A DNA stretch of 62,134 nt, filler included, from Malassezia furfur (taxonomy: Eukaryota): assembly GCA_052055015.1 (NCBI GenBank). It is 4 parts of 4 records of this genome, joined end to end, with 100 filler letters (N's around TTAATTAATTAA, not from the genome) between each part and the next. Parts side by side here need not be neighbours in the genome. Positions count along the whole stretch, not along the records: positions 15,617 to 31,094 come from JBQJIT010000272.1; 3 more parts are not named here. One strand, 5' to 3'. The notes beneath the pieces are model-generated. The model was not told the DNA's origin and searched no databases. It saw only the letters and a program-made list of their open reading frames with translations. How positions within the stretch are numbered: the first letter of the stretch is position 1; the number at the start of each line of letters is the position of its first letter. Of this stretch, positions 288 to 25,274 are shown one piece after another. Position numbers and translations under genes: made by a program.

Positions 288-1681
288 ATGTATGTCGCTA
301 AGACCGCCCTGCTAATAGCCGGCATGCTCACCATGGCTGCCTCAGCCTCGGAGCCGGTCAACAAATGGGACGTGCCTGACTTTTACTTCTCGGGCATCTC
401 GACATTTGCGCACCTCCCGCACGAAAAGTGGTACGTAGCGCGGTCCTGTGCTCATACGCATGCAGTCTGGTGAACGAGGACGTGCACTACGATGTCGCCG
501 TGCTCGGCGTGCCGATTGACACGGCTGTTTCGTACCGCCCTGGTGCGCGCTTTGGTCCGCGCGCAATCCGCCAGGGTAGCGCACGACAGACCGTGTTTCG
601 CTCGTTCAACCCGGTGCTTGGCATCAATCCATACGTGTCGCAGACCAAGTTCATGGATTGTGGTGACGTGCCAGTGACTCCATTCGATAATGCATTGGCA
701 TTTCGCCAGATTGAAGAGGCCTATGATGACATTATTGGGCGCCCTCTACCGACCGGTCCGGGCTCCATTGAGGCCCTCCCACCGAAGACGTCCAAGGGCA
801 AGCCGACCTACGTGGCCAAGGACGGTAAATCGCATCCGCGTGTCGCCCTGATGGGCGGCGACCATTCGGTTGCCCTCCCGGTGCTCCGTTCGCTCAACAA
901 GGTGTACGGCCCCGTGAGTGTGATCCACTTTGACTCGCATCTCGACACATGGGCGCCGGCCGCGTACGGTGCCGCGTCGTGGGGCTCGGATATCTCTGGC
1001 TACACGCATGGCACCATGTTTTATCATGCCGCAAATGAAGGACTGACCCGCAACTCTTCGATCCATGTCGGCCTACGTGGGCTACTCAGTGGTACCGACT
1101 ATGTCGACTACCACCGCGACAACAGCCTCGGCTTTACCTACCTGGAGACGTGGGAGATGGACAAACTCGGCACGGACGGTGTTGTAGAGGCGATCAAGGA
1201 GCGTGTTGGTGACACGCCTGTGTACCTCAGCATTGACATTGATGTGCTCGACCCTTCCATCGCCCCTGGCACCGGTACGCCAGTCAGTGGTGGACTGACA
1301 TCGCGCGAGCTACGGTCCATGGTGAGAATGCTCAAGGGGCTCAACCTTGTTGGCTGTGAGGTCGTCGAGGTGAGTCCGCCGTACGACTCGAATGGCGAGG
1401 TCACGGCACTTGCAGCTGCTGAATTACTGTACGAGATGATGTCGATCATGGCTCTTCGTCCCCTCGACAAGAAGGCGATTGACCCGTACGAGCGGCCGCC
1501 ACGCTGGGAACCGAAGAGCAAGGAGAATAAGGGCGTCAAGGGGTGTGGGTGTGACCACAGTTCGGCACCAGCTGCGTCGTCGTCAATGCCCAAGTATGTC
1601 TTTTTGTCGCTCTTGCTAGTTGTGCCCGCGGTTTTGTTTGTGTTGAAGCGTGATTCGCCTAAGCCTGAGCACCAAAAGTAG
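288..1681 (+). CDS. Agmatinase/guanidinobutyrase-like ureohydrolase (arginase family) with signal peptide and C-terminal hydrophobic anchor
   Basis: Intron 431-465 (35 nt) gives HLPHEKCLVNED. Mn-site motifs GGDHS, HFDSHLD, SIDIDVLDP and GTGTP are intact. N-terminus MYVAKTALLIAGMLTMAASAS (alternative in-frame ATG at 255). C-terminus KYVFLSLLLVVPAVLFVLKR. Confidence 0.9.
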
Positions 1682-2253
1682 GTATTGATTGTAGCGATGG
1701 AGACCAAACATGCGCACAGCACTGCTCCCATCTAGCGGGAAAATGAATATAGCAGTAGGCAAGTGGAATATTCATTATTGTTCATATTTTCATGTGTGAA
1801 GTTTTGGGCACCAGACTTGACTATCCTTGTCAAAGAACAAGGACAATTAGAGCTCACCTAGATCCTACCACTACTGCATAATCTTAGTCTCTCGAGTAAC
1901 TGTTAAGACTGTTCCAGGTATTTAAGTTTATTTTTCTTTTTGTATTTACAACCTTTACAAGAATAACATGTGTATCTTAAACCACTTGGTCAAAGTGGGT
2001 GTAAACAGAAAATGTGGTGGGAATAAGCACAGAAGTAAAATAAACTGGCTAATAAAGAGAGAGTGCAGCGAGTAGAGGTAGTAAGTTACATGAATTTGAC
2101 TATGGGATTGGAGGTGGTTCTGAACGAATACATGTTTATACCTGTTTCCTTGAAATTGCAAACGTAAAGTATTCCAATACAGCTGCTTAAACCAGAGTGC
2201 GGTGACATAACCAAAAATTGTCACTATCTGCGAAAGCGCGGAATGTCGCTATT

Positions 2254-2631
2254 TTTATCATTTATCTCTCAAAGCGGTAGAGCGGCCAGGAACTACGTAC
2301 AGATATGTCTCGGTATGTTAATCGTAACTCTGCGTAGATCGTTGTTTCTTGCCTGTAAGCTAAAAACGCCATTATGCATCCAGCAAACTTATCTGCTATG
2401 CCGCAAATGGCAAGCAACCTTCAATCTTTTGCCCCAGAAAGACATGAACGTTACGATGAGAAGTGCTTGTGCACCTCAAAAAGACAACATTTTGCTTAGT
2501 CAAGAATACCCCCGCGTTTGCCCGCTTGGGACACAAGATAAGATATGACTAGTAGCGATCATCGAGGAAGCCCGGATCATGACCGCAATCTGGGGTAAAG
2601 ATAAGAACTAGGTATGCTACATATATATAAG
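2254..2631 (+). promoter_or_regulatory. GATA-site cluster and TATA box upstream of the amine oxidase
   Basis: TTTATC at 2254 and 2261, CTTATC at 2388, GATAAG at 2537 and 2600, TATATATAAG at 2622-2631. Confidence 0.5.
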
Positions 2632-2673
2632 TGGTGAATTTTGGCTAGCTACCTCTCAGAGTGTGCGTTCAAA

Positions 2674-5107
2674 ATAAGGATCAAACCCATTTTTGGCACC
2701 TTGGCCATTTTGGCATATGTGTCAGCCAAAGTTACGCGACTGTCGCATCCACATGTGTATCAAAAAGAAGACCCTGATGGATATATCGATGAAAAAGACT
2801 TCAAAGATTCCGGATATCCTGCACCAAAAACGTGCGCTCCTAAAGAGAACATCTGGGCATCAATTACAAATGACGAAGCAGCTTCTGTGATTAAATGGCT
2901 ACATAAGCATAGTGGACTCAACCTGACGAGTGCTGAGAATGCGACCGCTTGGGATAACAAGATTAGTGTAGTGGACTTGCTTGCCCCTAATAAGGTACGT
3001 CTCTCCATTGAAAACTGCTGACCCTGTCAGACGGATGCGAATCTTTACCTCTCCGGTGACGGTCCCAAGGCCGATCGCTACGCGGTTGCCACGATTATGT
3101 TTGGTGCAACGGAAGAGCCATGGGTAGAAGATATTGGAGTCGGCCCGTTACCAATTTCAAACAAAAATCACCTTCTGGACCTGAGCTATTTGTCTACGAA
3201 GGGCACCATGAAGATTCGCAACTACAATGCCGACGAGGAATTGCAAACGAAGTTTCTTCGGAAGGTTTCAACTGGCGTTGCGGATATCACGAAAGATCTG
3301 ATTAATATGACCGTCACTACTCATGACCACTCTCAGGGTGACATCTGGGGGATTGATCCCCTTTGGCATGAGGATGGACGGGTTATCTATTGGGTTTCAT
3401 ACTGGGGAAATGTCCAAGGTTTCCAGCTTGACGGATCTACTTTACTTCCCCAGGGGCTGTTTTTCAGGTGTGACATCACTGGTCGTGATATGAGTAAATG
3501 GTCTGTTACCGGATGGTATTACAACGGACAATTCTGGAACAGTACCGAATCATTCCGTGCTGCATGGGAGCAAGGCCAGATTAAGAAGGCCGAGCTTATG
3601 AATTCGCCCTATATTGAGCCTGGGGAACATGTCTGGTATGGTACTGATCGATGGGGCAAAGCCATGGCTCAGGACGAGAAGGCACCTCCAGTTAGTGTTG
3701 CACCAGAAGGTCAGCGTTTTGCTATCGATCAAGAGAACCGCTACGTCGAATGGATGGATTTCTCTTTCTACATTACATTTACTCGCGATGCTGGTGTACG
3801 TCTGTTTGATATTAAATATCAAAACAAGACAATTCTTTACGAGCTGGGATTGCAAGAAGCCATTGCTCACTATGCCGGCTCCGATCCAGTGCAAAGTGGA
3901 ACTTCCTACCTTGACACGTACCACTCGTTTGGTGCTTATGCTTTCGAGCTGGTTGATGGCTATGACTGCCCCACCTACAGCCACTACATGAATGCTACAT
4001 TCCATGCCGACGAGCAGTCACGTACACACAGAAATGCCATTTGCCTCTTTGAAATGGACATGCAACTTCCAATTTCGCGGCATTCCTCCTCAAAGTATGT
4101 CACTGTTACCCGTAATGTGGCACTGGTCCTCCGGTCTGTTTCGACTGTTGGAAACTACGATTATACGTTCACGTACTACTTCTACCTGGATGGCTCTATC
4201 GAGGTGAAGGTCAGTGCTAGTGGCTATATTCAAAGTGCATTCTACGCTCAAAACGACGAATATGGATACCGAATTCACCGTGGCCTCTCTGGTTCGATGC
4301 ACGACCACGTGCTTACGTACAAGGCGGATCTTGATGTTCTCGGGACGAAGAACTCTTTCGCAAAGCATGGTGCATTTGCATCGAATGAATCCTATCCTTG
4401 GACACAGGGCAAACAGCGCAGCACAATGAAGATGCAGCGCTCATGGGTTGACTCTGAGGACGAAGGCAAGGTTCATATCGAGGGCAATGGTCAAGTCCAG
4501 TACCTTGTTCTTAACAAGAATGAGACAAATGACAACGGCGAGCCTCGAGGATATCGTATCATGCCAGGAGCTGGAGGATTCCATCATCTAACCATCCAGG
4601 AATCCGACAATCTGCTCAACAGTCAGCATTTTGCAACACATCACATGTATGTCACGCAACAGAAAGACACCGAGCCTCGCGTGTCTAATGCGAACAACAA
4701 TCTGGATCCAGAAAATCCGATCGTTGATTTCGGTCGTTTCCTTGACGGTGATTCCCTCGACCAAGAAGACCTTGTGTTGTGGCTGAATTTGGGGATGACG
4801 CATATCCCACACACTGGTGATCTACCCAACACGGTACAAACTACTGCACTCCAGCTTTGTTCTTCTGCCGCACAATTACCTCAAGGATGATCCATCGCGA
4901 CAAACTAAGCAAATGGTTCGCATTCAGTATGGCAAGAAAGATGATGACGCTAAACTGCACACTTTCGGTTCCTCTCCACACCCTCGTGGAATGCTCAATC
5001 TTTCTAGTGCTTACGGTGACTTGCACCAATACGCAGGGGATGTTGCAATTCGCAAATTCCCTTATGATCCGTTGCATCCGTTCAATGACACCGAGAGCAT
5101 TGTTTAA
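2674..5107 (+). pseudogene. Secreted copper/TPQ amine oxidase (AOC3 / fungal lysyl-oxidase-like type), apparently disrupted
   Basis: Intron 2995-3030 gives PNK|TDANLYL. TPQ motif VGNYDY, Cu ligands HDH and THIP are present. The signal peptide [I]RIKPIFGTLAILAYVSA starts with ATA instead of ATG (2674). A frameshift at ~4846-4849 separates TTA from HSSFVLLPHNY. Confidence 0.85.
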
Positions 5108-5820
5108 GGAGGGGTCTTGTATTTATTTTTCAAGATTTATCTTAGTTCGAATATTTTAAGCCATGTTACTATTATTACTACAATTAATTGCCATATCACC
5201 CACACAAGCTGAAAGAATGTTGCGCCAAGTATCCCAGATACGATTGATTGTCTTCTCATAAATCGTATTTGGTTCAGCTTCGCAGGTTCTTCCGAGTCGG
5301 TAGGATCAGCTTCAATTATATCAAAAAAAAAAAAAAATCTGGCAACGTTGATGTGTTTTCCAAATACTTTTCTTTAAGTTCCGCTGAAATGGCCACAACC
5401 GTGTTTTTAATATCCTTTGTCGTGACCATCACCTCATATCACGGGGGAACACAAAGTGCCGCAAAGTTTAATGGTCAAACGCGGGGTAAAGGATCGGTAT
5501 GTCGTGATTTAACAGTGGTAGCATATTTCCACGTCTTGAAAGCACATCATTTCTCGTAATGATCAGCAAGGTGTTGCTCATGGTGGACAAGTATTGGCCT
5601 TAATCCGTACCACTTGCATGTACGCGCATCTAGCGGCCACGATGCTGACAACTCCTGAAATTATGAAATGTCGCACCCCATTGGTTTAGATCTTAGCCGC
5701 AGCAGATGGTCCAGTAATGGCCGTGATAACAAGAGGTCATCTGAGATAGACAATTTGTCGTTCAGCAGTTAAAACAGCTCAGCCTCTTCAAAATCCCTCT
5801 CCAAGGTCACTCCTCACACG

Positions 5821-19332: not shown

Positions 19333-20567
19333 CTACACAGCAATCTCCGCCCCAATCGAGGGGAAGAGCACCTTGTCCATCGTATCCATAGGCAATGGGT
19401 CCAAGGCGAGGTCCAGATCCAGAAACTCGTGCGCAGGGAATAACGTCGCATCTACACCGGGATCCGATGTCGCTGAAACGTCGTCCTCTGCGCCCAGCTG
19501 ACTCGGGGGAGTCGTGCTGCACGAGAGCGATCCAGATGCGTGCGTAGTGTCAGAGGGCGTAAACGTCGAAAGGAGGAGGTTCATGTCCATGTCGGTATTT
19601 ACAGGGGCGTGGGCGTCGGGCGTGTGGCCAGTTGTTTCAGGGCCATAGACAACCGGTGCGAAGGGATCCGCAACCGAATCCGAAGCACTCGCCGAGGACA
19701 TCCAGGAGCCGAGGGGCGCGTGCGGATCGTCGGCGTCCGCCAGGTTGTGGGGCTTTGCATCCAGGCTCGGGGCGAGCATGTAGTCTGGGAGCCAGCCCGC
19801 AATGCTGCTGCCATTGGTTGTCGCATCCGCCATTTCCGGGCGCGTGCTTCCGCCGCGCTGCTCCAACTCTTGGAATTGTTCTGCACCCGCTGCTGGGCCA
19901 AGTGCGGAGACAGGAGATCTGTCGAATCCGCACTGGTCGCCTTCGCTGCCGGAAGGCAAGTGCTATCCGAAGAGGGAGACAATCGCTGCGTTGGCACGAC
20001 CGAAGATGGCGCGACAGCCGGCGCTGCGCTTGCTGCTTCTGCTCCTGCTACGCGCTCGTCCACAGAGCGGTGGGTGGACAAAGCCGACACAATCTGGGTA
20101 AGCTGCGACGGAATCGCATCGTGCGACACAGTCTCCTTTGATGCCTGGCTGTGCTGGACCAGCCGGACCAACAACGTTTCGAGGTTGTGTACCTTGGCTC
20201 CAAGATCAGATACTTGGCTTTCAAGTTGCCTCTGCTTTTGCTGGGCCTCGAAATCGCGAGCTGCCCATGCCTTCTTTTCTTCCCGTAACTGTTGAACCTC
20301 TTGCTCCAATTGTTCAATATGTGCCTTCTTCTTTTCCCGAGAGACTTGCGCAGATTGCCGATTTCGTTGTTGCCGTGCAAGAAGACGTGCCTTCTTTTCT
20401 TCCTCACTGGACCGTGCGACCTTGACTGGGGGCTGTTCGGCCGCAGGGTCGGCCGCGCGTTTCGTGCCTGGCGATGGCGTGCTGCTGGGCGCAGCTGCCT
20501 GGGGCGCCTCAGGGGCGCATACCAGGAGTGTAGGATCGATTCCTGAACCGTCTTGTACGCTTGTCAT
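19333..20567 (-). CDS. HAC1: UPR bZIP transcription factor (HAC1/Hxl1/Cib1 type); spliced form ~392 aa, unspliced form ~322 aa (stop at 19599)
   Basis: bZIP EKKARLLARQQRNRQSAQVSREKKK. Two overlapping ORFs are joined by removing a 56-nt non-GT-AG intron (19893-19948) flanked by CNG^CNGN loops. Confidence 0.88.
19893..19948 (-). other. Ire1-type unconventional intron (56 nt)
   Basis: GCCTTC-CGG^CAGC-GAAGGC hairpin and CC-CAG^CAGC-GG loop. Internal stem AGTGCGGA/TCCGCACT. Confidence 0.85.
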
Positions 20568-20654
20568 GCACACCAATCCAGCAACGATTACACAACTTGG
20601 GAGATGCGCCGCCCGGACTTATGAAGCAACAAGGGAAACAGCTTTGTGGGGGGA

Positions 20655-20702
20655 TGACGTGGAAGCTTGCGCCGCCACACAGCCACGTGGAGGGATCACG
20701 TG
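20655..20702. promoter_or_regulatory. UPRE-like TGACGTGGAAG plus two CACGTG boxes in the HAC1/GYP5 divergent promoter
   Basis: TGACGTGG at 20655-20662; CACGTG at 20684 and 20697. Confidence 0.55.
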
Positions 20703-20800
20703 AATGGACTCAACCCCGCAAAGCGGAGCACGTAGCGTGCATAAGGCTGTTGGGACCTTCTGCATACCGCGTGGTCAGCGAATCGAGCCTAACTGCTGCC

Positions 20801-23034
20801 ATGCCCCGGAGCAACATGACGACGGGGAGCGCCGAAGGTCGGCAAGCGCGCAACAAGACGCGCGAGAAATCCCAGTCCAAGCTTGTTGTCGCTGAGGAAG
20901 ACGACACGAGCACCGTCGACGGGGACAACTCGACTGAATATACCGATGAAACAGACGAAACCGATGAAACAGAAACGGAGACGGACAGTGTTGTGACGTC
21001 ATCGACACAGACAGACGATGACGATGACGAAGATGACGATGACGAAGATGATGAAGATGAGGACGATGAGGACGACGACGATGAGGAGGAGGACGATGAC
21101 GACGATGACGATGACGACCAGTCTGCGGAAGAAGACGAGGATGACGAAAACGATGAGTCAGATGCGTCGTCGACACATACTACCACGACGGAGCGCAAAG
21201 TCTTGGACGAGCCGGGCTTGTCCTCGGCAGCCATTCGGAAAACTCAAAAGATGGAACGGGTACAGGACCCAAGCGAGCCTCTCGATCTTGAGACTGCCAA
21301 GGCGATTATTGCCTCGACACCACACTCTGATTTTTTGCCTCCTTCTGTGGGTGCAGAGTCCATGATCGAGCCCAAGATGATCATACAAAACCCCTTCTCG
21401 GAAGAGCGCGCCTCGAACGCCGACGTGGACAAAGTCACGAAACAAACCGAGGCTCTACGGATACCACCGGCCAAACTGCCACTTGGTGCAGCGCGCCAGA
21501 TTGCTGCAAACGAGAAAGCAGAGAAGATGAACGACTCCGAATACGACCTGATTCTCGCACGCATGGTGGCCCAGAACCGCAAACTGAACCAGGACCCTCG
21601 CGCCATGCGGCGGAGTGCGCTGGGGATCGGAAAATTACGCCAAAGCTTTGAGCATCTGCAGCAGCGTAACCAGCCTCGTTCTGAGACCGAAGCGGACGGT
21701 GTCGGTGCAGGCAGCAAAGAGTTTGGCGTAGGCAATGTCCTGAAGGAAGACGACGCTTCAGATGGGGTTGACCAGGAGAGCGATACCGTGGAGAAGATTG
21801 ATTGGGAATTCTGGGGTGGCCTGATCAATGACTACAATACCATTCTGGCAACAAGCCCCATCGAGCTCAGCAAGGCCATTTACTCAGGTATTCCGTCGGC
21901 GTTGCGTGGCATGATGTGGCAACTTCTAAGCAGCAGCAAAGACGAGGACCTTGAGGCACAGTATGCCAAATACCTGAGTCTTCCTTGTCCACAGGAGCGT
22001 GACATCCGGCGTGATTTGAATCGGACGTTCCCCACACAAGATTACTTCAAGGATGCCAAGGGGGTAGGCCAGGAACAGCTATACAATGTGGTCAAGGCCT
22101 ATTCTCTGTTTGACCCCGAATGTGGCTATTGTCAAGGCATGCAATTTGTTGTGGGGCCGCTGCTGCTCAACATGCCCGACGAGGAAGCCTTTAGCACGTT
22201 GGTGCGTCTCATGCAGAACTACGATCTGCGTGGTCACTTTATTCCCAACATGCCGTCGCTCCAGCTGCGACTGTACCAATTTGACCGGCTACTGGAAGAA
22301 ACCCAGCCTGTGCTTCATTTGCATTTCACGCGCCGTGGCATCAAAAGCAGCATGTATGCGAGCCAATGGTTTATGACACGTACGTGACCCATCACTGACC
22401 CAGTCTTGTATGTGATGTTGAATAACCCAGTTCCTATCGATTCCCGCTCGAGGTGGTGTATCGCATTTTGGACTCGATTTTCGCCGAGGGCATCGAGGCC
22501 ATGTTCCGCTTCGCACTTGCGCTCTTGCAAAAGAACGAGAGTAAACTTCTTGAACTCGACTTTGAAGAGTGCCTGAATTTCCTTAAACTGCACCTTGTGG
22601 ACGCCTACATGGTACGTCAGAGGCTGACGCAGTCGGAGCCGAACGACCACCAACAGGAAGCTGCGCCGCATGTGCGCGTGGGTGAGCTGGTGCGCGATGC
22701 GTTTGCGGTCAAGATTTCTCCGTACACGCTAGACTCGTTTGCGAACGAGTTCTATGACCAGGCCAAGTCGGCCAACGAGCGCTCGGTCGAGATGGAGGCC
22801 CTTCGGATGGTGAACCGAAACCTGCGTCTAAAGGTACAGGCGCTCGAAGAGCAGCTGAGTCAAGTGAGTGCCGAGCACGTCGACCTGGTCAAGCGTGTGG
22901 TCATGTCCAAGCTTTCACAAGAAGAGATGGCCGAGGAGCTCGTGCGCTACAAGGTCATGTACGCCGAGGCGGTCCTCCAAAACGAGGTTGCCGGCCGCTC
23001 GGACCGTGCGGCCTCCACTCCGATCGCAGAATGA
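20801..23034 (+). CDS. GYP5: TBC-domain Rab GAP (Gyp5/Evi5-like) with acidic N-terminal tract
   Basis: GIPSALRGMMW, IRRDLNRTFP, GYCQG, YASQWFMTLFSYRFPL after splicing introns 22380-22403 and 22408-22430 (4-nt exon 22404-22407). Probable 21-nt intron at 22612-22632. Confidence 0.9.
21013..21157 (+). repeat. Coding GAY/GAR trinucleotide-rich tract (poly-D/E)
   Basis: GACGATGACGATGACGAAGAT..., encoding ~45 mostly acidic residues. Confidence 0.9.
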
Positions 23035-23167
23035 ACATAGCTCGAACTCGGCGAACGGCGCAACCGCAAAGAATTAGCTAAGCACACTCCGGCCTGCTGC
23101 GCCCCGCGTCGCGAACGGAACCGCGTTTCACAAGGAACCGACCGGCTCACTCCGTGGGACTGCTGGT

Positions 23168-25274
23168 ATGATGGAAGGCAGCAAGGTTCCAGTCCTGTGT
23201 TCAGGATGGGTGCTGAAGAAGAAGAAGAAGAAGATTCAGGGTACGTTGGATGTACGCCAACTCAGGTTATGCCAAGCGCTGGCTGGTGCTTCTCCAGGAC
23301 GGCACACTGTTCTACTCGATCAACCCCAATAAGAGCCCGCGCGGTATCATTGACGTGCCGCACGCCAGTGTCAGCTCGGATATTCGTCACGGTATGTTCT
23401 AGACATACTCACGCAGGCACCATCCATGTCGACAGCGGGTCAAACGTGTTCCGTGCGTGTGGGCTACTAACGCAGACCTCAAGATGTTGAGCGACGCCGA
23501 CTTTGAGAAATGGCGGAACATGTTGCGCAAGTTCCTGCACGGTCAACCAAGCGAAATCAGCACGCCGTCAGATGTCCGTCCCACCGCGCAATTGGTGGAC
23601 AAGGCCGACGAATTGCTGCAATCGTGCATGGTTTCGCTTCAGAACCTCTCCAGCAGTGACAGCAACCCAGAGATCCGCCATGTGCTGGACAAGCTAGAGG
23701 AGCTCCGGAAAAAGCATGGAGAAATCCGGACGGCGTCCTCGCGGCGTGCGTCAGGCGAATTTGGCATCTCGCGGATGGGCACACCCGTAGGCCACTCGCT
23801 GGCCTCGGGGAGTCCTTCCATGTCGCCGCTCCCTGGCTCTGCCATGGGCGGCGGAGTTGTGGGGTCGTCTGCATCGACGTTCAGTGCCGCGGATGACGGA
23901 GACTTTTACGATGCGTATGACGACTTTGAAGGAGTCGAGTACCAGATCGAGGAGGAACCTGGACATGCCGCGGACGTGGGTGACGACAGCGAAGACGACG
24001 GTGAAGAAAGCAGCGAGCCCGATGAAAGCGAACCGATGTCGTCAATCGAGGCGGCCAAGTCGACCACTGCTCAGGCGCAAATGGTGACGTACCGTAAGGA
24101 GTTGCCTGCGCCTGTGTCGGGTGAGGAAGTGTCGCTCTTCAGCATGCTCAAGAAGAATGTCGGCAAGGACTTGTCGACCATCTCGTTCCCGGTAACATTC
24201 AACTGCCCTCTGTCTCTGCTGCAGGCCGTTGCTGAGGAGTACGAATACGCCCCCGACCTGTTGGAACGTGCCGTGCAATCAAACGACCCTGTCGAACGGC
24301 TCTCGCTGGTCGGTGCGTTTGCCGTGAGTGGCTATGCATCGACCATCCAGCGCTCGAGTCGGAAACCGTTCAACCCCCTGCTGGGCGAGACGTACGAGTG
24401 TGTGCGTGCTGACCGCAACTTGTTCTTTGTGGCCGAAAAGGTGGTGCATCGCCCTCCGATTGTCGCGGCGTATGCGCAAGGGAAGGGCTGGAAGGCCTCG
24501 TCCTCGGGCACGGTGAAGAACAAATTCTGGGGAAAGTCGCTCGAGCTGATTGCCGAGGGCAGCGAGATCGTCGAGCTCGACACGGGCGAAGTGTACAGCA
24601 TTACCAAGCCAAGTTCCTTTATGCGTAACCTGCTGGCGGGCAACAAATACCTCGAGCACGTCGGAGAAATGACCGTGACCGAGCTCAAGAGCAACTTGCG
24701 CCTTGTGATCCAGTTCAAGGAGTCGAGTATGTTTGGTGGTGCGAGCTCGCGCAACCACGTTGTGGGAACGATGTATGACGCGAATGGCTCCGAGATTGCG
24801 ACATTCAAGGGCAAGTGGGACGAGCAGTTTGCGCGGCAAATCGACAAGGAACATCTCCAAGTGTTGTGGGAGGCAGCGCCAATGCCGCCTAACTCGACCA
24901 AGTACTATGGTTTCACCAACTTTGCCATGTCGCTCAACGAAGTAACACCGGATGTGCAAAACATCCTGCCGCCGACTGACTCGCGCCTGCGTCCGGACCA
25001 GCGCGCGCTAGAGGACGGCGACGTGGACACCGCCGAGAATCTCAAGGCGCAGCTTGAAGGCCGCCAGCGTGAGCGACGAAAGGCACTGGAAGAGGGTGGG
25101 GGAACGTACACACCCCAGTGGTTCCACCTGAACCCTAAGAAGGGCGAGCATGACCCCGAGTACATCTACGGCGGCGCTGCGAGTGATTCGGACTACTTCC
25201 AGAAACGCAAGGCGGTTGCCCAAGGCCGTGCTCAGTGGGAGGTGCAAGGCGCCACCATTTTCCAGGACAAGTAG
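23168..25274 (+). CDS. OSH3: Oxysterol-binding protein homolog with PH domain (Osh3-like)
   Basis: GWVLKKKKKKIQG|YAKRW PH domain; NVGKDLS, RKPFNPLLGETYE, EKVVHRPP, PTDSRLRPDQ. Introns at 23241-23265, 23392-23416 and 23453-23475. Confidence 0.88.

What the first reader, a model, noticed from the sequence alone, without database searches (positions are those of the whole stretch)
22380..22430. 4-nt micro-exon between 24-nt and 23-nt introns in GYP5
Seen: ACA C|GTACGT..CTGACCCAG|TCTT|GTATGT..TAACCCAG|T TCC TAT CGA. Only inclusion of TCTT (22404-22407) yields the TBC motif WFMTLFSYRFPL. Skipping it (a 51-nt intron) frameshifts, and retaining intron 1 hits TGA. Two splicing events within 51 nt imply sequential, intron-defined splicing and a possible on/off switch. 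The second branch site (AATAAC) is weak.
Basis: partly seen in the sequence, partly recalled or inferred. Interest (0 to 1): 0.7.

Follow-up and report, generated by a model that had tools for sequence, protein, structure and literature searches.

The report
Four-base exon in Malassezia GYP5 gene
A Rab-GTPase-activator gene of the skin yeast Malassezia very probably contains an exon only four bases long between two extremely short introns; this old, conserved structure is one that gene-prediction programs routinely get wrong.

Summary
At 22380-22430 there are two complete minimal introns (24 and 23 nt) on either side of TCTT (22404-22407). They lie inside the TBC domain of a GYP5-like RabGAP gene of Malassezia furfur or a very close relative.

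No RNA data could be reached, so splicing is inferred. The inference is strong:
- Both introns fit the window's minimal-intron pattern (15 matches against 0.41 expected by chance).
- Pfam profiles need exactly two residues at the junction.
- Leu-Phe, which only the micro-exon supplies, is what 69 of the 100 homologs with an uninterrupted junction carry.
- An unrelated Ustilaginomycotina metagenome contig (L010) has the same TCTT, in the same two phases, between unrelated introns of 67 and 56 nt.
- Public gene models in three fungal classes show errors at exactly this junction.

Public models of M. obtusa and M. psittaci use it, but it is disfavoured.

The "on/off switch" idea has no support, and several Malassezia species have lost both introns.

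Exons of 1-4 nt are already documented in fungi, so this is a new member of a known kind. An earlier scan note reported tandem 4-nt exons in a kinase gene of another genome, not this locus.

The parts
20801..22379 (+). Exon 1 of the GYP5-like RabGAP gene. It holds the acidic N-terminal region and the first about three quarters of the TBC domain, and ends one base into the Leu codon.
   Evidence: ORF 20534..22387. The start codon at 20801 is inferred from the MPRS... N-termini of P0003 and P0121. Pfam PF00566 matches profile positions 2-173 and PF23436 positions 1-103, both ending exactly at Thr (22376-22378).
22380..22403 (+). Intron 1: 24 nt, phase 1, donor GTACGT, branch motif CTGAC (predicted branch A at 22398), 3' CAG.
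   Evidence: Read. It matches the strict minimal-intron pattern (13 observed against 0.17 expected). If retained it carries an in-frame TGA. The donor is read as Arg-Thr in ORF calls of relatives P0001, P0003, P0004, P0121 and P0130.
22404..22407 (+). Micro-exon TCTT. It supplies bases 2-3 of the Leu codon and bases 1-2 of the Phe codon of the conserved WFxTLF helix motif.
   Evidence: An identical TCTT lies in identical phases in L010 at 1517-1520.
22408..22430 (+). Intron 2: 23 nt, phase 2, donor GTATGT, branch-like ATAAC (predicted branch A at 22425), 3' CAG.
   Evidence: Read. It matches the loose pattern only, because the first branch base is A. Its length equals the window's mode: 10 of the 15 pattern matches are 23 nt.
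22431..23034 (+). Last coding part, ending with the TGA stop at 23032-23034. It holds the rest of the TBC domain and a C-terminal coiled-coil-like region.
   Evidence: ORF 22426..23034. Counting from Ser (22432), Pfam PF23436 matches profile positions 106-212. PF00566 matches 177-216 from the second residue. Cnn_1N gives 29.2 bits.
22612..22632 (+). Candidate third intron: 21 nt, phase 0, in frame and stop-free, donor GTACGT, CTGAC, one base, CAG. Whether it is spliced or retained is open.
   Evidence: Pattern match. L010 has an intron-like element at the same codon position. Models P0005, P0006, P0008 and P0134 keep V[RC]...Q peptides there, and P0122 removes 45 nt.

Best explanation
The GYP5-like gene is interrupted, inside the conserved WFxTLF helix of its TBC domain, by two independent U2-type introns of the ultra-short class typical of this genome (24 and 23 nt). 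They sit 4 nt apart, so the mature mRNA contains a constitutive 4-nt exon, TCTT.

Each intron carries its own donor, branch motif and CAG, with the CAG's last base five bases downstream of the predicted branch A. Each is therefore recognised by intron definition.

The branch site of intron 1 (22398) lies only 10 nt from the donor of intron 2 (22408). Two spliceosomes can hardly occupy the 51-nt unit at once, so the two excisions are most likely consecutive, in either order. Both orders give the same product.

The arrangement is an inherited relic. The two intron positions predate the split of Malasseziomycetes from other Ustilaginomycotina. The introns shrank in Malassezia while the 4-nt exon, fixed by coding, stayed.

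Shown: the sequence anatomy, its statistical fit, the protein-level requirement, and the conservation. Inferred: actual splicing, its order, and constitutive inclusion.
For: 1. Anatomy and reading frames.

2. Both introns are among 15 matches to the minimal-intron pattern, against 0.41 expected. Ten of the 15 are 23 nt.

3. Pfam: the exon-1 translation ends at PF23436 profile position 103. The downstream translation, starting at Ser, begins at position 106. PF00566 gives 173 and 177 (second residue). Exactly two residues are therefore missing.

4. Of the 120 best homologs (630 hits), 100 run through the junction without interruption and carry hydrophobic pairs: 69 LF, 27 MF, 2 VF, 1 LC, 1 LL. 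None has RT.

5. A profile built from 95 homologs (the contiguous-junction ones outside the 12 closest hits, P0001-P0011 and P0096, which are mostly Malassezia-like) scores the micro-exon isoform at 342.3 bits and the 47-nt isoform at 335.8 bits.

6. An exhaustive search found 9 single-intron and 7 two-intron canonical solutions. Only the 24+4+23 solution uses two GTRYGT donors and restores the motif at the right length.

7. L010 is a metagenome contig with 69% amino-acid identity to the window. Its closest homologs, at about 80%, are Exobasidiomycetes-like proteins. In L010, exon 1 also ends one base into the codon. It is followed by a 67-nt GT..AG intron, TCTT, and a 56-nt GT..AG intron, then the frame resumes and gives WFMT-LF-AYRTPL. 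The flanking exons are 63/90 identical to the window, while the introns differ in length and sequence. The motif YAG-TNTT-GTRNGT arose in 0 of 20000 shuffles of L010's interval.

8. Nineteen of the 120 homologs are anomalous at exactly this junction, all within the 60 closest hits. RT, RD and CD substitutions are what a donor shifted by +4 gives. LL-stop and LLYV... are what reading TCTT plus GTA.. gives.

9. P0189 is a Malassezia-like ORF call. It reads WFMT-LLYVIADS-SYRFPL, which is compatible with loss of intron 1 and an in-frame intron 2 still present. That would mean two separable introns.
Against: - There is no transcript evidence.
- None of the four members I read in the M. furfur protein cluster carries LF at the junction (P0001, P0121, P0122 and P0130, out of 14 members). 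No member has the 721-728 aa expected of the correctly spliced protein.
- Intron 2's branch motif, ATAAC, departs from CTRAC, which 13 of the 15 pattern matches have.
- A frame-preserving single-intron alternative exists, and the public models of M. obtusa and M. psittaci use it.
- The footprints in named species are read from proteins only. Their DNA was not seen.
- DNA-level conservation rests on one independent contig, L010, out of the 24 loci in which the junction could be read. One search returned 43 loci in all.
Confidence: 0.9

Rival explanations
1. There is only one intron, 22384-22430 (47 nt), with donor GTGACC and the downstream CAG. The protein then carries Arg-Thr in place of Leu-Phe, and TCTT is ordinary intron sequence.
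For: It is the only canonical single-intron solution that keeps both WFMT and SYRFPL (1 of 9 frame-preserving single-intron solutions). It supplies the required two residues. Public models of M. psittaci (P0006) and M. obtusa (P0134) have exactly this RT.
Against: - The GT at +5/+6 exists automatically in any GTNNGT donor, so the alternative is not independent evidence.
- GTGACC lacks the G at +5 and the T at +6. In an unbiased donor scan, 8 of 11 acceptor modules had an ORF-bridging GTRYGT donor 22-36 nt upstream. A ninth passed only the looser threshold.
- RT occurs in 0 of the 100 homologs with an uninterrupted junction, and this isoform scores 6.5 bits lower.
- It would leave a perfect CTGAC-C-CAG 3' module unused inside the intron.
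- It does not explain why AG-TCTT-GT is conserved in L010 among otherwise unrelated intron sequence.
- At 47 nt it exceeds every ORF-bridging intron with a GTRYGT donor and a CTRAC branch motif seen in the window, whose maximum is 36 nt.
Confidence: 0.06
2. The micro-exon is real and also acts as a regulated gate. Skipping it, or retaining the weaker intron 2, gives frameshifted and prematurely terminated transcripts, which tunes Gyp5 output. It adds to the best explanation rather than replacing it.
For: Skipping, or retention of either intron, ends the frame early. Both the window (ATAAC) and L010 (CTGAT) have an off-consensus branch motif in intron 2. The pair has persisted in lineages that a published analysis classes as intron-poor (PMC8476143, passages read).
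Against: - There are no RNA data of any kind.
- At least six Malassezia-like loci (L001-L005, L016) have the junction uninterrupted in their DNA. Several ORF calls on related sequences do too (P0137, P0146, P0159-P0161, P0184, P0186), though their DNA was not seen. The structure is therefore dispensable.
- Exon skipping is uncommon in fungi that use intron definition (established knowledge, recalled).
- Two taxa are too few to call the weak branch site conserved.
Confidence: 0.1
3. The interruption is an assembly error or a decayed gene, and the intron-like look is accidental.
For: One public M. furfur model (P0121, 528 aa) simply stops at the TGA inside intron 1.
Against: - The same read-through ending in Arg-Thr-stop is present in separately recorded sequences P0001, P0121 and P0130. 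These are the 3 members examined at their ends, out of a 14-member cluster seen on many contigs.
- The downstream 200 codons are open and still match the TBC profiles.
- The shuffle controls rule out chance.
Confidence: 0.02

Closest known systems
Ultra-short internal coding microexons in fungi (Coprinopsis cinerea long-read annotation, PMC12230235, passages read)
   Same: These are internal exons of a few bases whose omission breaks the frame and which automatic annotation misses. The paper reports 1,165 gene models with an internal exon of 15 nt or less, and 89 with an exon of 3 nt or less.
   Different: That work rests on long-read cDNA in a fungus with ordinary intron sizes. Here there is no RNA evidence. 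The flanking introns are 24 and 23 nt, so the whole intron-exon-intron unit is only 51 nt. The exon is also traced across three classes of Ustilaginomycotina.
Single-nucleotide exon in Fusarium CYP621A (PMC12940212, abstract and passages read)
   Same: A micro-exon sits inside a conserved protein motif. It was found by comparative alignment, is needed for phase compatibility, and is missed by pipelines. The authors also argue that such exons preserve motifs when introns fall inside them.
   Different: That exon is 1 nt and lies within a 139-nt interval. It was confirmed in public RNA-seq reads. The gene family and fungal phylum differ.
Constitutive 4-bp microexon of human MPC1 (PMC9929638, abstract only, seen in the listings)
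   Same: It has the same length, is not a multiple of three, is described as constitutively included, and is required for the frame.
   Different: It is a vertebrate gene with long introns, and its recognition depends on exon-definition elements. Here each intron is shorter than a typical spliceosome footprint, and intron definition is expected.
Stwintrons, the spliceosomal twin introns of fungi (PMC5639578 and PMC6616335, abstracts seen in the listing)
   Same: Two U2-type splicing reactions in immediate proximity must occur consecutively.
   Different: In a stwintron an internal intron interrupts a splice signal of the external intron, and no exon bases remain between them. Here both introns are complete on their own, and 4 coding bases remain.
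Gyp5-type TBC-domain Rab GTPase-activating proteins
   Same: The Pfam RabGAP-TBC domains match. The best named homologs are annotated GYP5 or 'related to GYP5'. There is a C-terminal coiled-coil-like region.
   Different: Nothing unusual was seen at the protein level. The finding concerns gene structure only.

Membership tests
RabGAP-TBC domain proteins (PF00566 / PF23436), Gyp5-like | Significant match to the TBC profiles above the curated cut-off | tested here: met
   The exon-1 translation scores 159 bits against PF00566 (cut-off 25.2) and 166.3 bits against PF23436 (cut-off 27). The downstream translation scores 101.5 bits against PF23436.
RabGAP-TBC domain proteins (PF00566 / PF23436), Gyp5-like | Catalytic arginine-finger (IxxDxxR) and glutamine-finger (YxQ) motifs. 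The motif definitions are recalled, not taken from a call. | tested here: met
   The translation contains IRRDLNRTF and GYCQGM within the TBC match.
RabGAP-TBC domain proteins (PF00566 / PF23436), Gyp5-like | Orthology to yeast GYP5 rather than to another TBC paralog | tested here: inconclusive
   Sources name the closest proteins GYP5 or 'related to GYP5'. No tree was built.
U2-type spliceosomal introns of the ultra-short Malassezia class | GT..AG ends with a GTRYGT donor | tested here: met
   The donors are GTACGT (22380) and GTATGT (22408). The pattern is enriched 15 against 0.41.
U2-type spliceosomal introns of the ultra-short Malassezia class | CTRAC-type branch motif a few bases before the 3' YAG | tested here: met
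   Intron 1 has CTGAC, with the 3' G five bases after the predicted branch A. Intron 2 has ATAAC at the same spacing, with the first base off consensus.
U2-type spliceosomal introns of the ultra-short Malassezia class | Length within the genome's own distribution | tested here: met
   The introns are 24 and 23 nt. Ten of the 15 pattern matches are 23 nt. The curated mean intron size in M. sympodialis is 30 bp (PMC5389616, Table 2, passage read).
U2-type spliceosomal introns of the ultra-short Malassezia class | Removal demonstrated in RNA | not testable with these tools
Internal coding micro-exon | Flanked directly by an acceptor AG and a donor GT, and needed for both the frame and the conserved residues | tested here: met
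Internal coding micro-exon | Conserved at the orthologous position in other species | tested here: met
   L010 has the identical TCTT in the same phases. Protein-level footprints occur in Malassezia, Tilletia, Violaceomyces and Ceraceosorus models.
Internal coding micro-exon | Inclusion seen in cDNA | not testable with these tools
   Also, no member of the M. furfur cluster has the length expected of the spliced protein.
Stwintron (spliceosomal twin intron) | An internal intron interrupts a splice signal of an external intron, and no exon bases are left between them | tested here: not met
   Each intron has a complete donor, branch motif and acceptor, and 4 coding bases lie between them.

The most novel reading that the evidence does not exclude
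The 51-nt unit is a conserved kinetic gate. The donor of intron 2 lies 10 nt from the branch site of intron 1, so the two spliceosomes exclude each other and splicing must be ordered. The off-consensus branch site of intron 2 would make a fraction of transcripts unproductive (frameshift, premature stop). That would give Ustilaginomycotina a splicing-based control of Gyp5 dosage. It would also explain why this intron pair survived in lineages that lost most introns.
Probability: 0.1. Interest if true: 0.6.

Novelty: new member of a known kind. Interest (0 to 1): 0.4.

Why it matters
Annotation. All three public gene models seen for M. furfur and M. obtusa damage the catalytic TBC domain at this spot. 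One is truncated at the stop inside intron 1. One has an 11-residue deletion that removes the motif. One has Arg-Thr in place of Leu-Phe. Models of at least seven further named species look wrong at the same place. This is a concrete test case for micro-exon-aware annotation of fungi with very short introns.

Mechanism. Two complete spliceosome substrates and an exon within 51 nt form a natural minimal construct. It could be used to ask how close a branch site and the next donor can lie, and whether excision is ordered.

Evolution. The locus shows that an exon of four bases can persist across a subphylum while its flanking introns shrink from about 60 nt to 23 nt. It also suggests that the two introns can be lost together or, apparently, one at a time.

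Tried and rejected
- Whole genome: none is held, so intron statistics come from the 62-kb window only.
- More orthologous DNA: scans of genome contigs and viral contigs found no relative. The single metagenome scan gave 43 loci. In 24 of them the junction could be read, and only L010 has the micro-exon. L001-L005 and L016 have an uninterrupted junction. L013, L019, L036 and L037 have a different intron a few codons downstream.
- A search among shorter proteins for transcript-derived fragments of the same species that span the junction found none at 95% identity or more. The best of 59 hits was 91%.
I ran the count by script instead.
- My first script pattern demanded at least 2 bases between the branch motif and YAG, so it missed most introns (4 matches). 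It was corrected.
- Earlier scan notes: nothing on this genome or on look-alike sequence. One note on tandem 4-nt exons in another genome did not bear on the evidence.
- Literature: searches for Malassezia with microexon and intron, micro-exon in fungi and basidiomycetes, and GYP5 with microexon terms listed no paper describing this exon among the 15-20 papers each call showed.
- Rejected readings: a stwintron (signals are not interrupted), a single 51-nt intron (frameshift), and the remaining canonical single- or double-intron solutions, which delete or replace conserved residues.
Full report
**What is in the sequence.** The upstream reading frame (ORF 20534..22387) ends ...Trp-Phe-Met-Thr, plus one base at 22379. 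A 24-nt GT..AG element follows at 22380-22403, with donor GTACGT, CTGAC, one base, then CAG. Next comes TCTT at 22404-22407. A 23-nt GT..AG element follows at 22408-22430, with donor GTATGT, ATAAC, one base, then CAG. The downstream frame (ORF 22426..23034) resumes at 22431.

I built each isoform in silico by slicing the window:
- Removing both elements gives an open frame to the natural stop, reading WFMTLFSYRFPL.
- Removing all 51 nt shifts the frame.
- Keeping the first element meets TGA at 22385-22387.
- Keeping only the second element shifts the frame.

**Is it more than chance?** An ORF-bridging scan of the window showed a sharp mode of 23-nt introns of one design. A pattern for that design (GTRYGT, 6-12 nt, HTRAC, 0-4 nt, YAG) matches 15 times on both strands. 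In 200 dinucleotide-preserving shuffles the mean was 0.41 and the maximum 2. With CTRAC required, it matches 13 times against 0.17. Ten of the 15 matches are 23 nt.

Both elements of the finding are among the 15, and they are the only adjacent pair. The junction motif YAG-TNTT-GTRNGT arose in 2 of 20000 shuffles of the interior of the 51-nt interval. For comparison, the manually curated M. sympodialis annotation has a mean intron size of 30 bp over 5350 introns (PMC5389616, Table 2, passage read).

**Organism and gene.** The exon-1 translation falls in the same 90%-identity cluster as two proteins named Malassezia furfur. The next cluster, at 94% identity, holds an M. obtusa protein. Pfam finds RabGAP-TBC domains on both sides of the junction. 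Sources call the homologs GYP5 or 'related to GYP5'. With the start codon inferred at 20801, the three-exon model encodes 728 residues.

**What must lie between the two long exons.**
- PF23436 matches exon 1 up to profile position 103, and the downstream part, starting at Ser, from position 106. PF00566 gives 173 and 177 (second residue). Exactly two residues are missing.
- Among the 120 best homologs (630 hits), 100 run through the junction uninterrupted. They carry LF (69), MF (27), VF (2), LC (1) or LL (1).
- A profile was built from the 95 contiguous-junction homologs outside the 12 closest hits (P0001-P0011 and P0096, mostly Malassezia-like). It scores the micro-exon isoform at 342.3 bits and the best alternative at 335.8 bits.

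**Alternatives.** I enumerated all canonical solutions (GT-AG, GC-AG, AT-AC) that leave an open frame. There are 9 single-intron and 7 two-intron solutions.

The only single intron that keeps both WFMT and SYRFPL is 22384-22430 (47 nt, donor GTGACC). It is weak evidence for four reasons:
- Every GTNNGT donor automatically offers a GT four bases downstream.
- GTGACC lacks the G at +5 and the T at +6. Eight of 11 acceptor modules in the unbiased donor scan had a GTRYGT donor; a ninth passed only the looser threshold.
- No uninterrupted homolog has RT.
- It would leave a perfect CTGAC-C-CAG module unused.

Only the 24+4+23 solution uses two consensus donors and restores the motif at the right length.

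**Independent DNA.** In 24 of them the junction could be read. L010 has 69% amino-acid identity to the window, and its closest homologs, at about 80%, are Exobasidiomycetes-like proteins. It has the same architecture:
- Exon 1 ends one base into the codon (1449).
- A 67-nt GT..AG intron with CTGAC follows (1450-1516).
- TCTT follows (1517-1520).
- A 56-nt GT..AG intron follows (1521-1576).
- The frame then gives WFMT-LF-AYRTPL.

The flanking exons are 63/90 identical to the window on each side, while the introns differ in length and sequence. The junction motif arose in 0 of 20000 shuffles of L010's interval. This is the strongest single argument that TCTT is an exon.

Six Malassezia-like loci (L001-L005, L016) have the junction uninterrupted, so both introns are lost there. 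Four loci (L013, L019, L036, L037) have a different intron a few codons downstream.

**Footprints in gene models.** Nineteen of the 120 homologs are anomalous at exactly this junction. All lie among the 60 closest hits, whose named members are Ustilaginomycotina. None lies among ranks 61-120, apart from one protein truncated before the junction.
- Substitutions RT (M. psittaci), RD (Violaceomyces palustris, Tilletia maclaganii) and CD (T. controversa) are what a donor shifted by +4 yields.
- LL-stop (T. indica) and LLYVSES (T. horrida) are what reading TCTT and then GTA.. yields.
- Several ORF calls simply run into a GTGAGT- or GTAAGT-like donor.
- T. horrida and Ceraceosorus each have one model or species with LF and another with an anomaly.

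These species belong to three classes. I saw no DNA for them, so this is inference from protein models.

The ORF call P0189 (Malassezia-like) reads WFMT-LLYVIADS-SYRFPL. That fits loss of intron 1 with an 18-nt in-frame intron 2 still present. If so, the two introns are separable units.

**Public models of this species.** Within the M. furfur and M. obtusa clusters:
- P0121 stops at the TGA inside intron 1.
- P0122 removes 77 nt from an upstream GTATGC and deletes the whole motif. This is one of the solutions listed.
- P0134 (M. obtusa) has RT.

None of the 14 members of the M. furfur cluster has the 721-728 residues expected of the correctly spliced protein. A search among shorter proteins found no junction-spanning fragment of this species. 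The micro-exon is therefore not annotated in any model I saw.

**How it most likely works.** Each intron has its own donor, branch motif and CAG, and the last base of the CAG lies five bases downstream of the predicted branch A (22398 and 22425). Recognition by intron definition is expected (inference).

The branch site of intron 1 lies 10 nt from the donor of intron 2, and the acceptor lies 4 nt from it. Simultaneous assembly of two spliceosomes is implausible, so consecutive excision in either order is the likely course (inference from general knowledge of spliceosome size).

Failure to remove intron 2, which has the off-consensus branch motif, would be the most likely error, and it ends the frame early. 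No data bear on regulation. The repeated loss of both introns in relatives argues that the structure is not needed.

**Comparison with what is known.**
- Exons of 1-4 nt are documented in fungi: Coprinopsis cinerea from long reads (PMC12230235, passages) and Fusarium CYP621A (PMC12940212, abstract and passages).
- A constitutive 4-bp exon is described in human MPC1 (PMC9929638, abstract only).
- Stwintrons share the need for consecutive splicing, but they leave no exon bases (abstracts).

No paper among the 15-20 that each of searches listed describes this exon. What is particular here is the compactness (51 nt for two introns and an exon), the depth of conservation, and the consistent failure of annotation.

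**Verdict.** It is a new member of a known kind. It is of moderate interest for annotation and as a minimal natural splicing substrate. The switch idea is untested. The decisive missing piece is cDNA.

Noticed in passing
window 22612-22632 (+); L010 about 1757-1813: A third intron-like element lies in the same gene. It is 21 nt, fits the minimal-intron pattern, and is in frame and stop-free, so retention would add 7 residues to a variable linker. L010 has a 57-nt intron-like element at the same codon position, also in frame and stop-free. Public models differ: P0005, P0006, P0008 and P0134 keep V[RC]...Q peptides there, and P0122 removes 45 nt. It may be an intron whose retention is tolerated (exitron-like)..
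   Followed up: partly
protein P0189 (ENA ORF call, Malassezia-like; no DNA seen): It reads WFMT-LLYVIADS-SYRFPL. This is compatible with intron 1 lost and an intron 2 of only 18 nt (GTATGT..CTGAC-AG by back-translation) still present and in frame. If real, it would be among the shortest spliceosomal introns..
   Followed up: partly
window 1501-5500: GC content is 0.40-0.49 here, against 0.55-0.73 in the rest of the window. The stretch holds a copper amine oxidase gene (PF01179, 412 bits) with a 36-nt intron at 2995-3030. This is a compositional outlier of unknown cause..
   Followed up: partly
window 23160-25270 (+): The neighbouring oxysterol-binding-protein gene (PF01237) appears to have three very short introns: 23241-23265 (25 nt) and 23392-23416 (25 nt), both read by eye, and 23453-23475 (23 nt, pattern match). 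The first two have branch-like CCAAC and CTCAC, so off-consensus branch motifs are not rare here..
   Followed up: partly
public homolog models P0005, P0006, P0008, P0012, P0022, P0028, P0031, P0051, P0060, P0121, P0122, P0134: Gene models of named Malassezia, Violaceomyces, Tilletia and Ceraceosorus species look wrong at the micro-exon junction. The errors are substitution, deletion, read-through or truncation inside the TBC domain..
   Followed up: partly
homologs P0138-P0145, P0149, P0152, P0157; loci L013, L019, L036, L037: Other basidiomycete lineages carry different introns within a few codons of the same motif, after SYR or after LFG/LFA. This short stretch of the TBC domain is unusually rich in lineage-specific intron positions..
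   Followed up: no
window about 20980-21160 (+): A long acidic Asp/Glu-rich low-complexity run lies in the N-terminal part of the GYP5-like protein. Its length differs between the window and cluster members P0001 and P0121..
   Followed up: no
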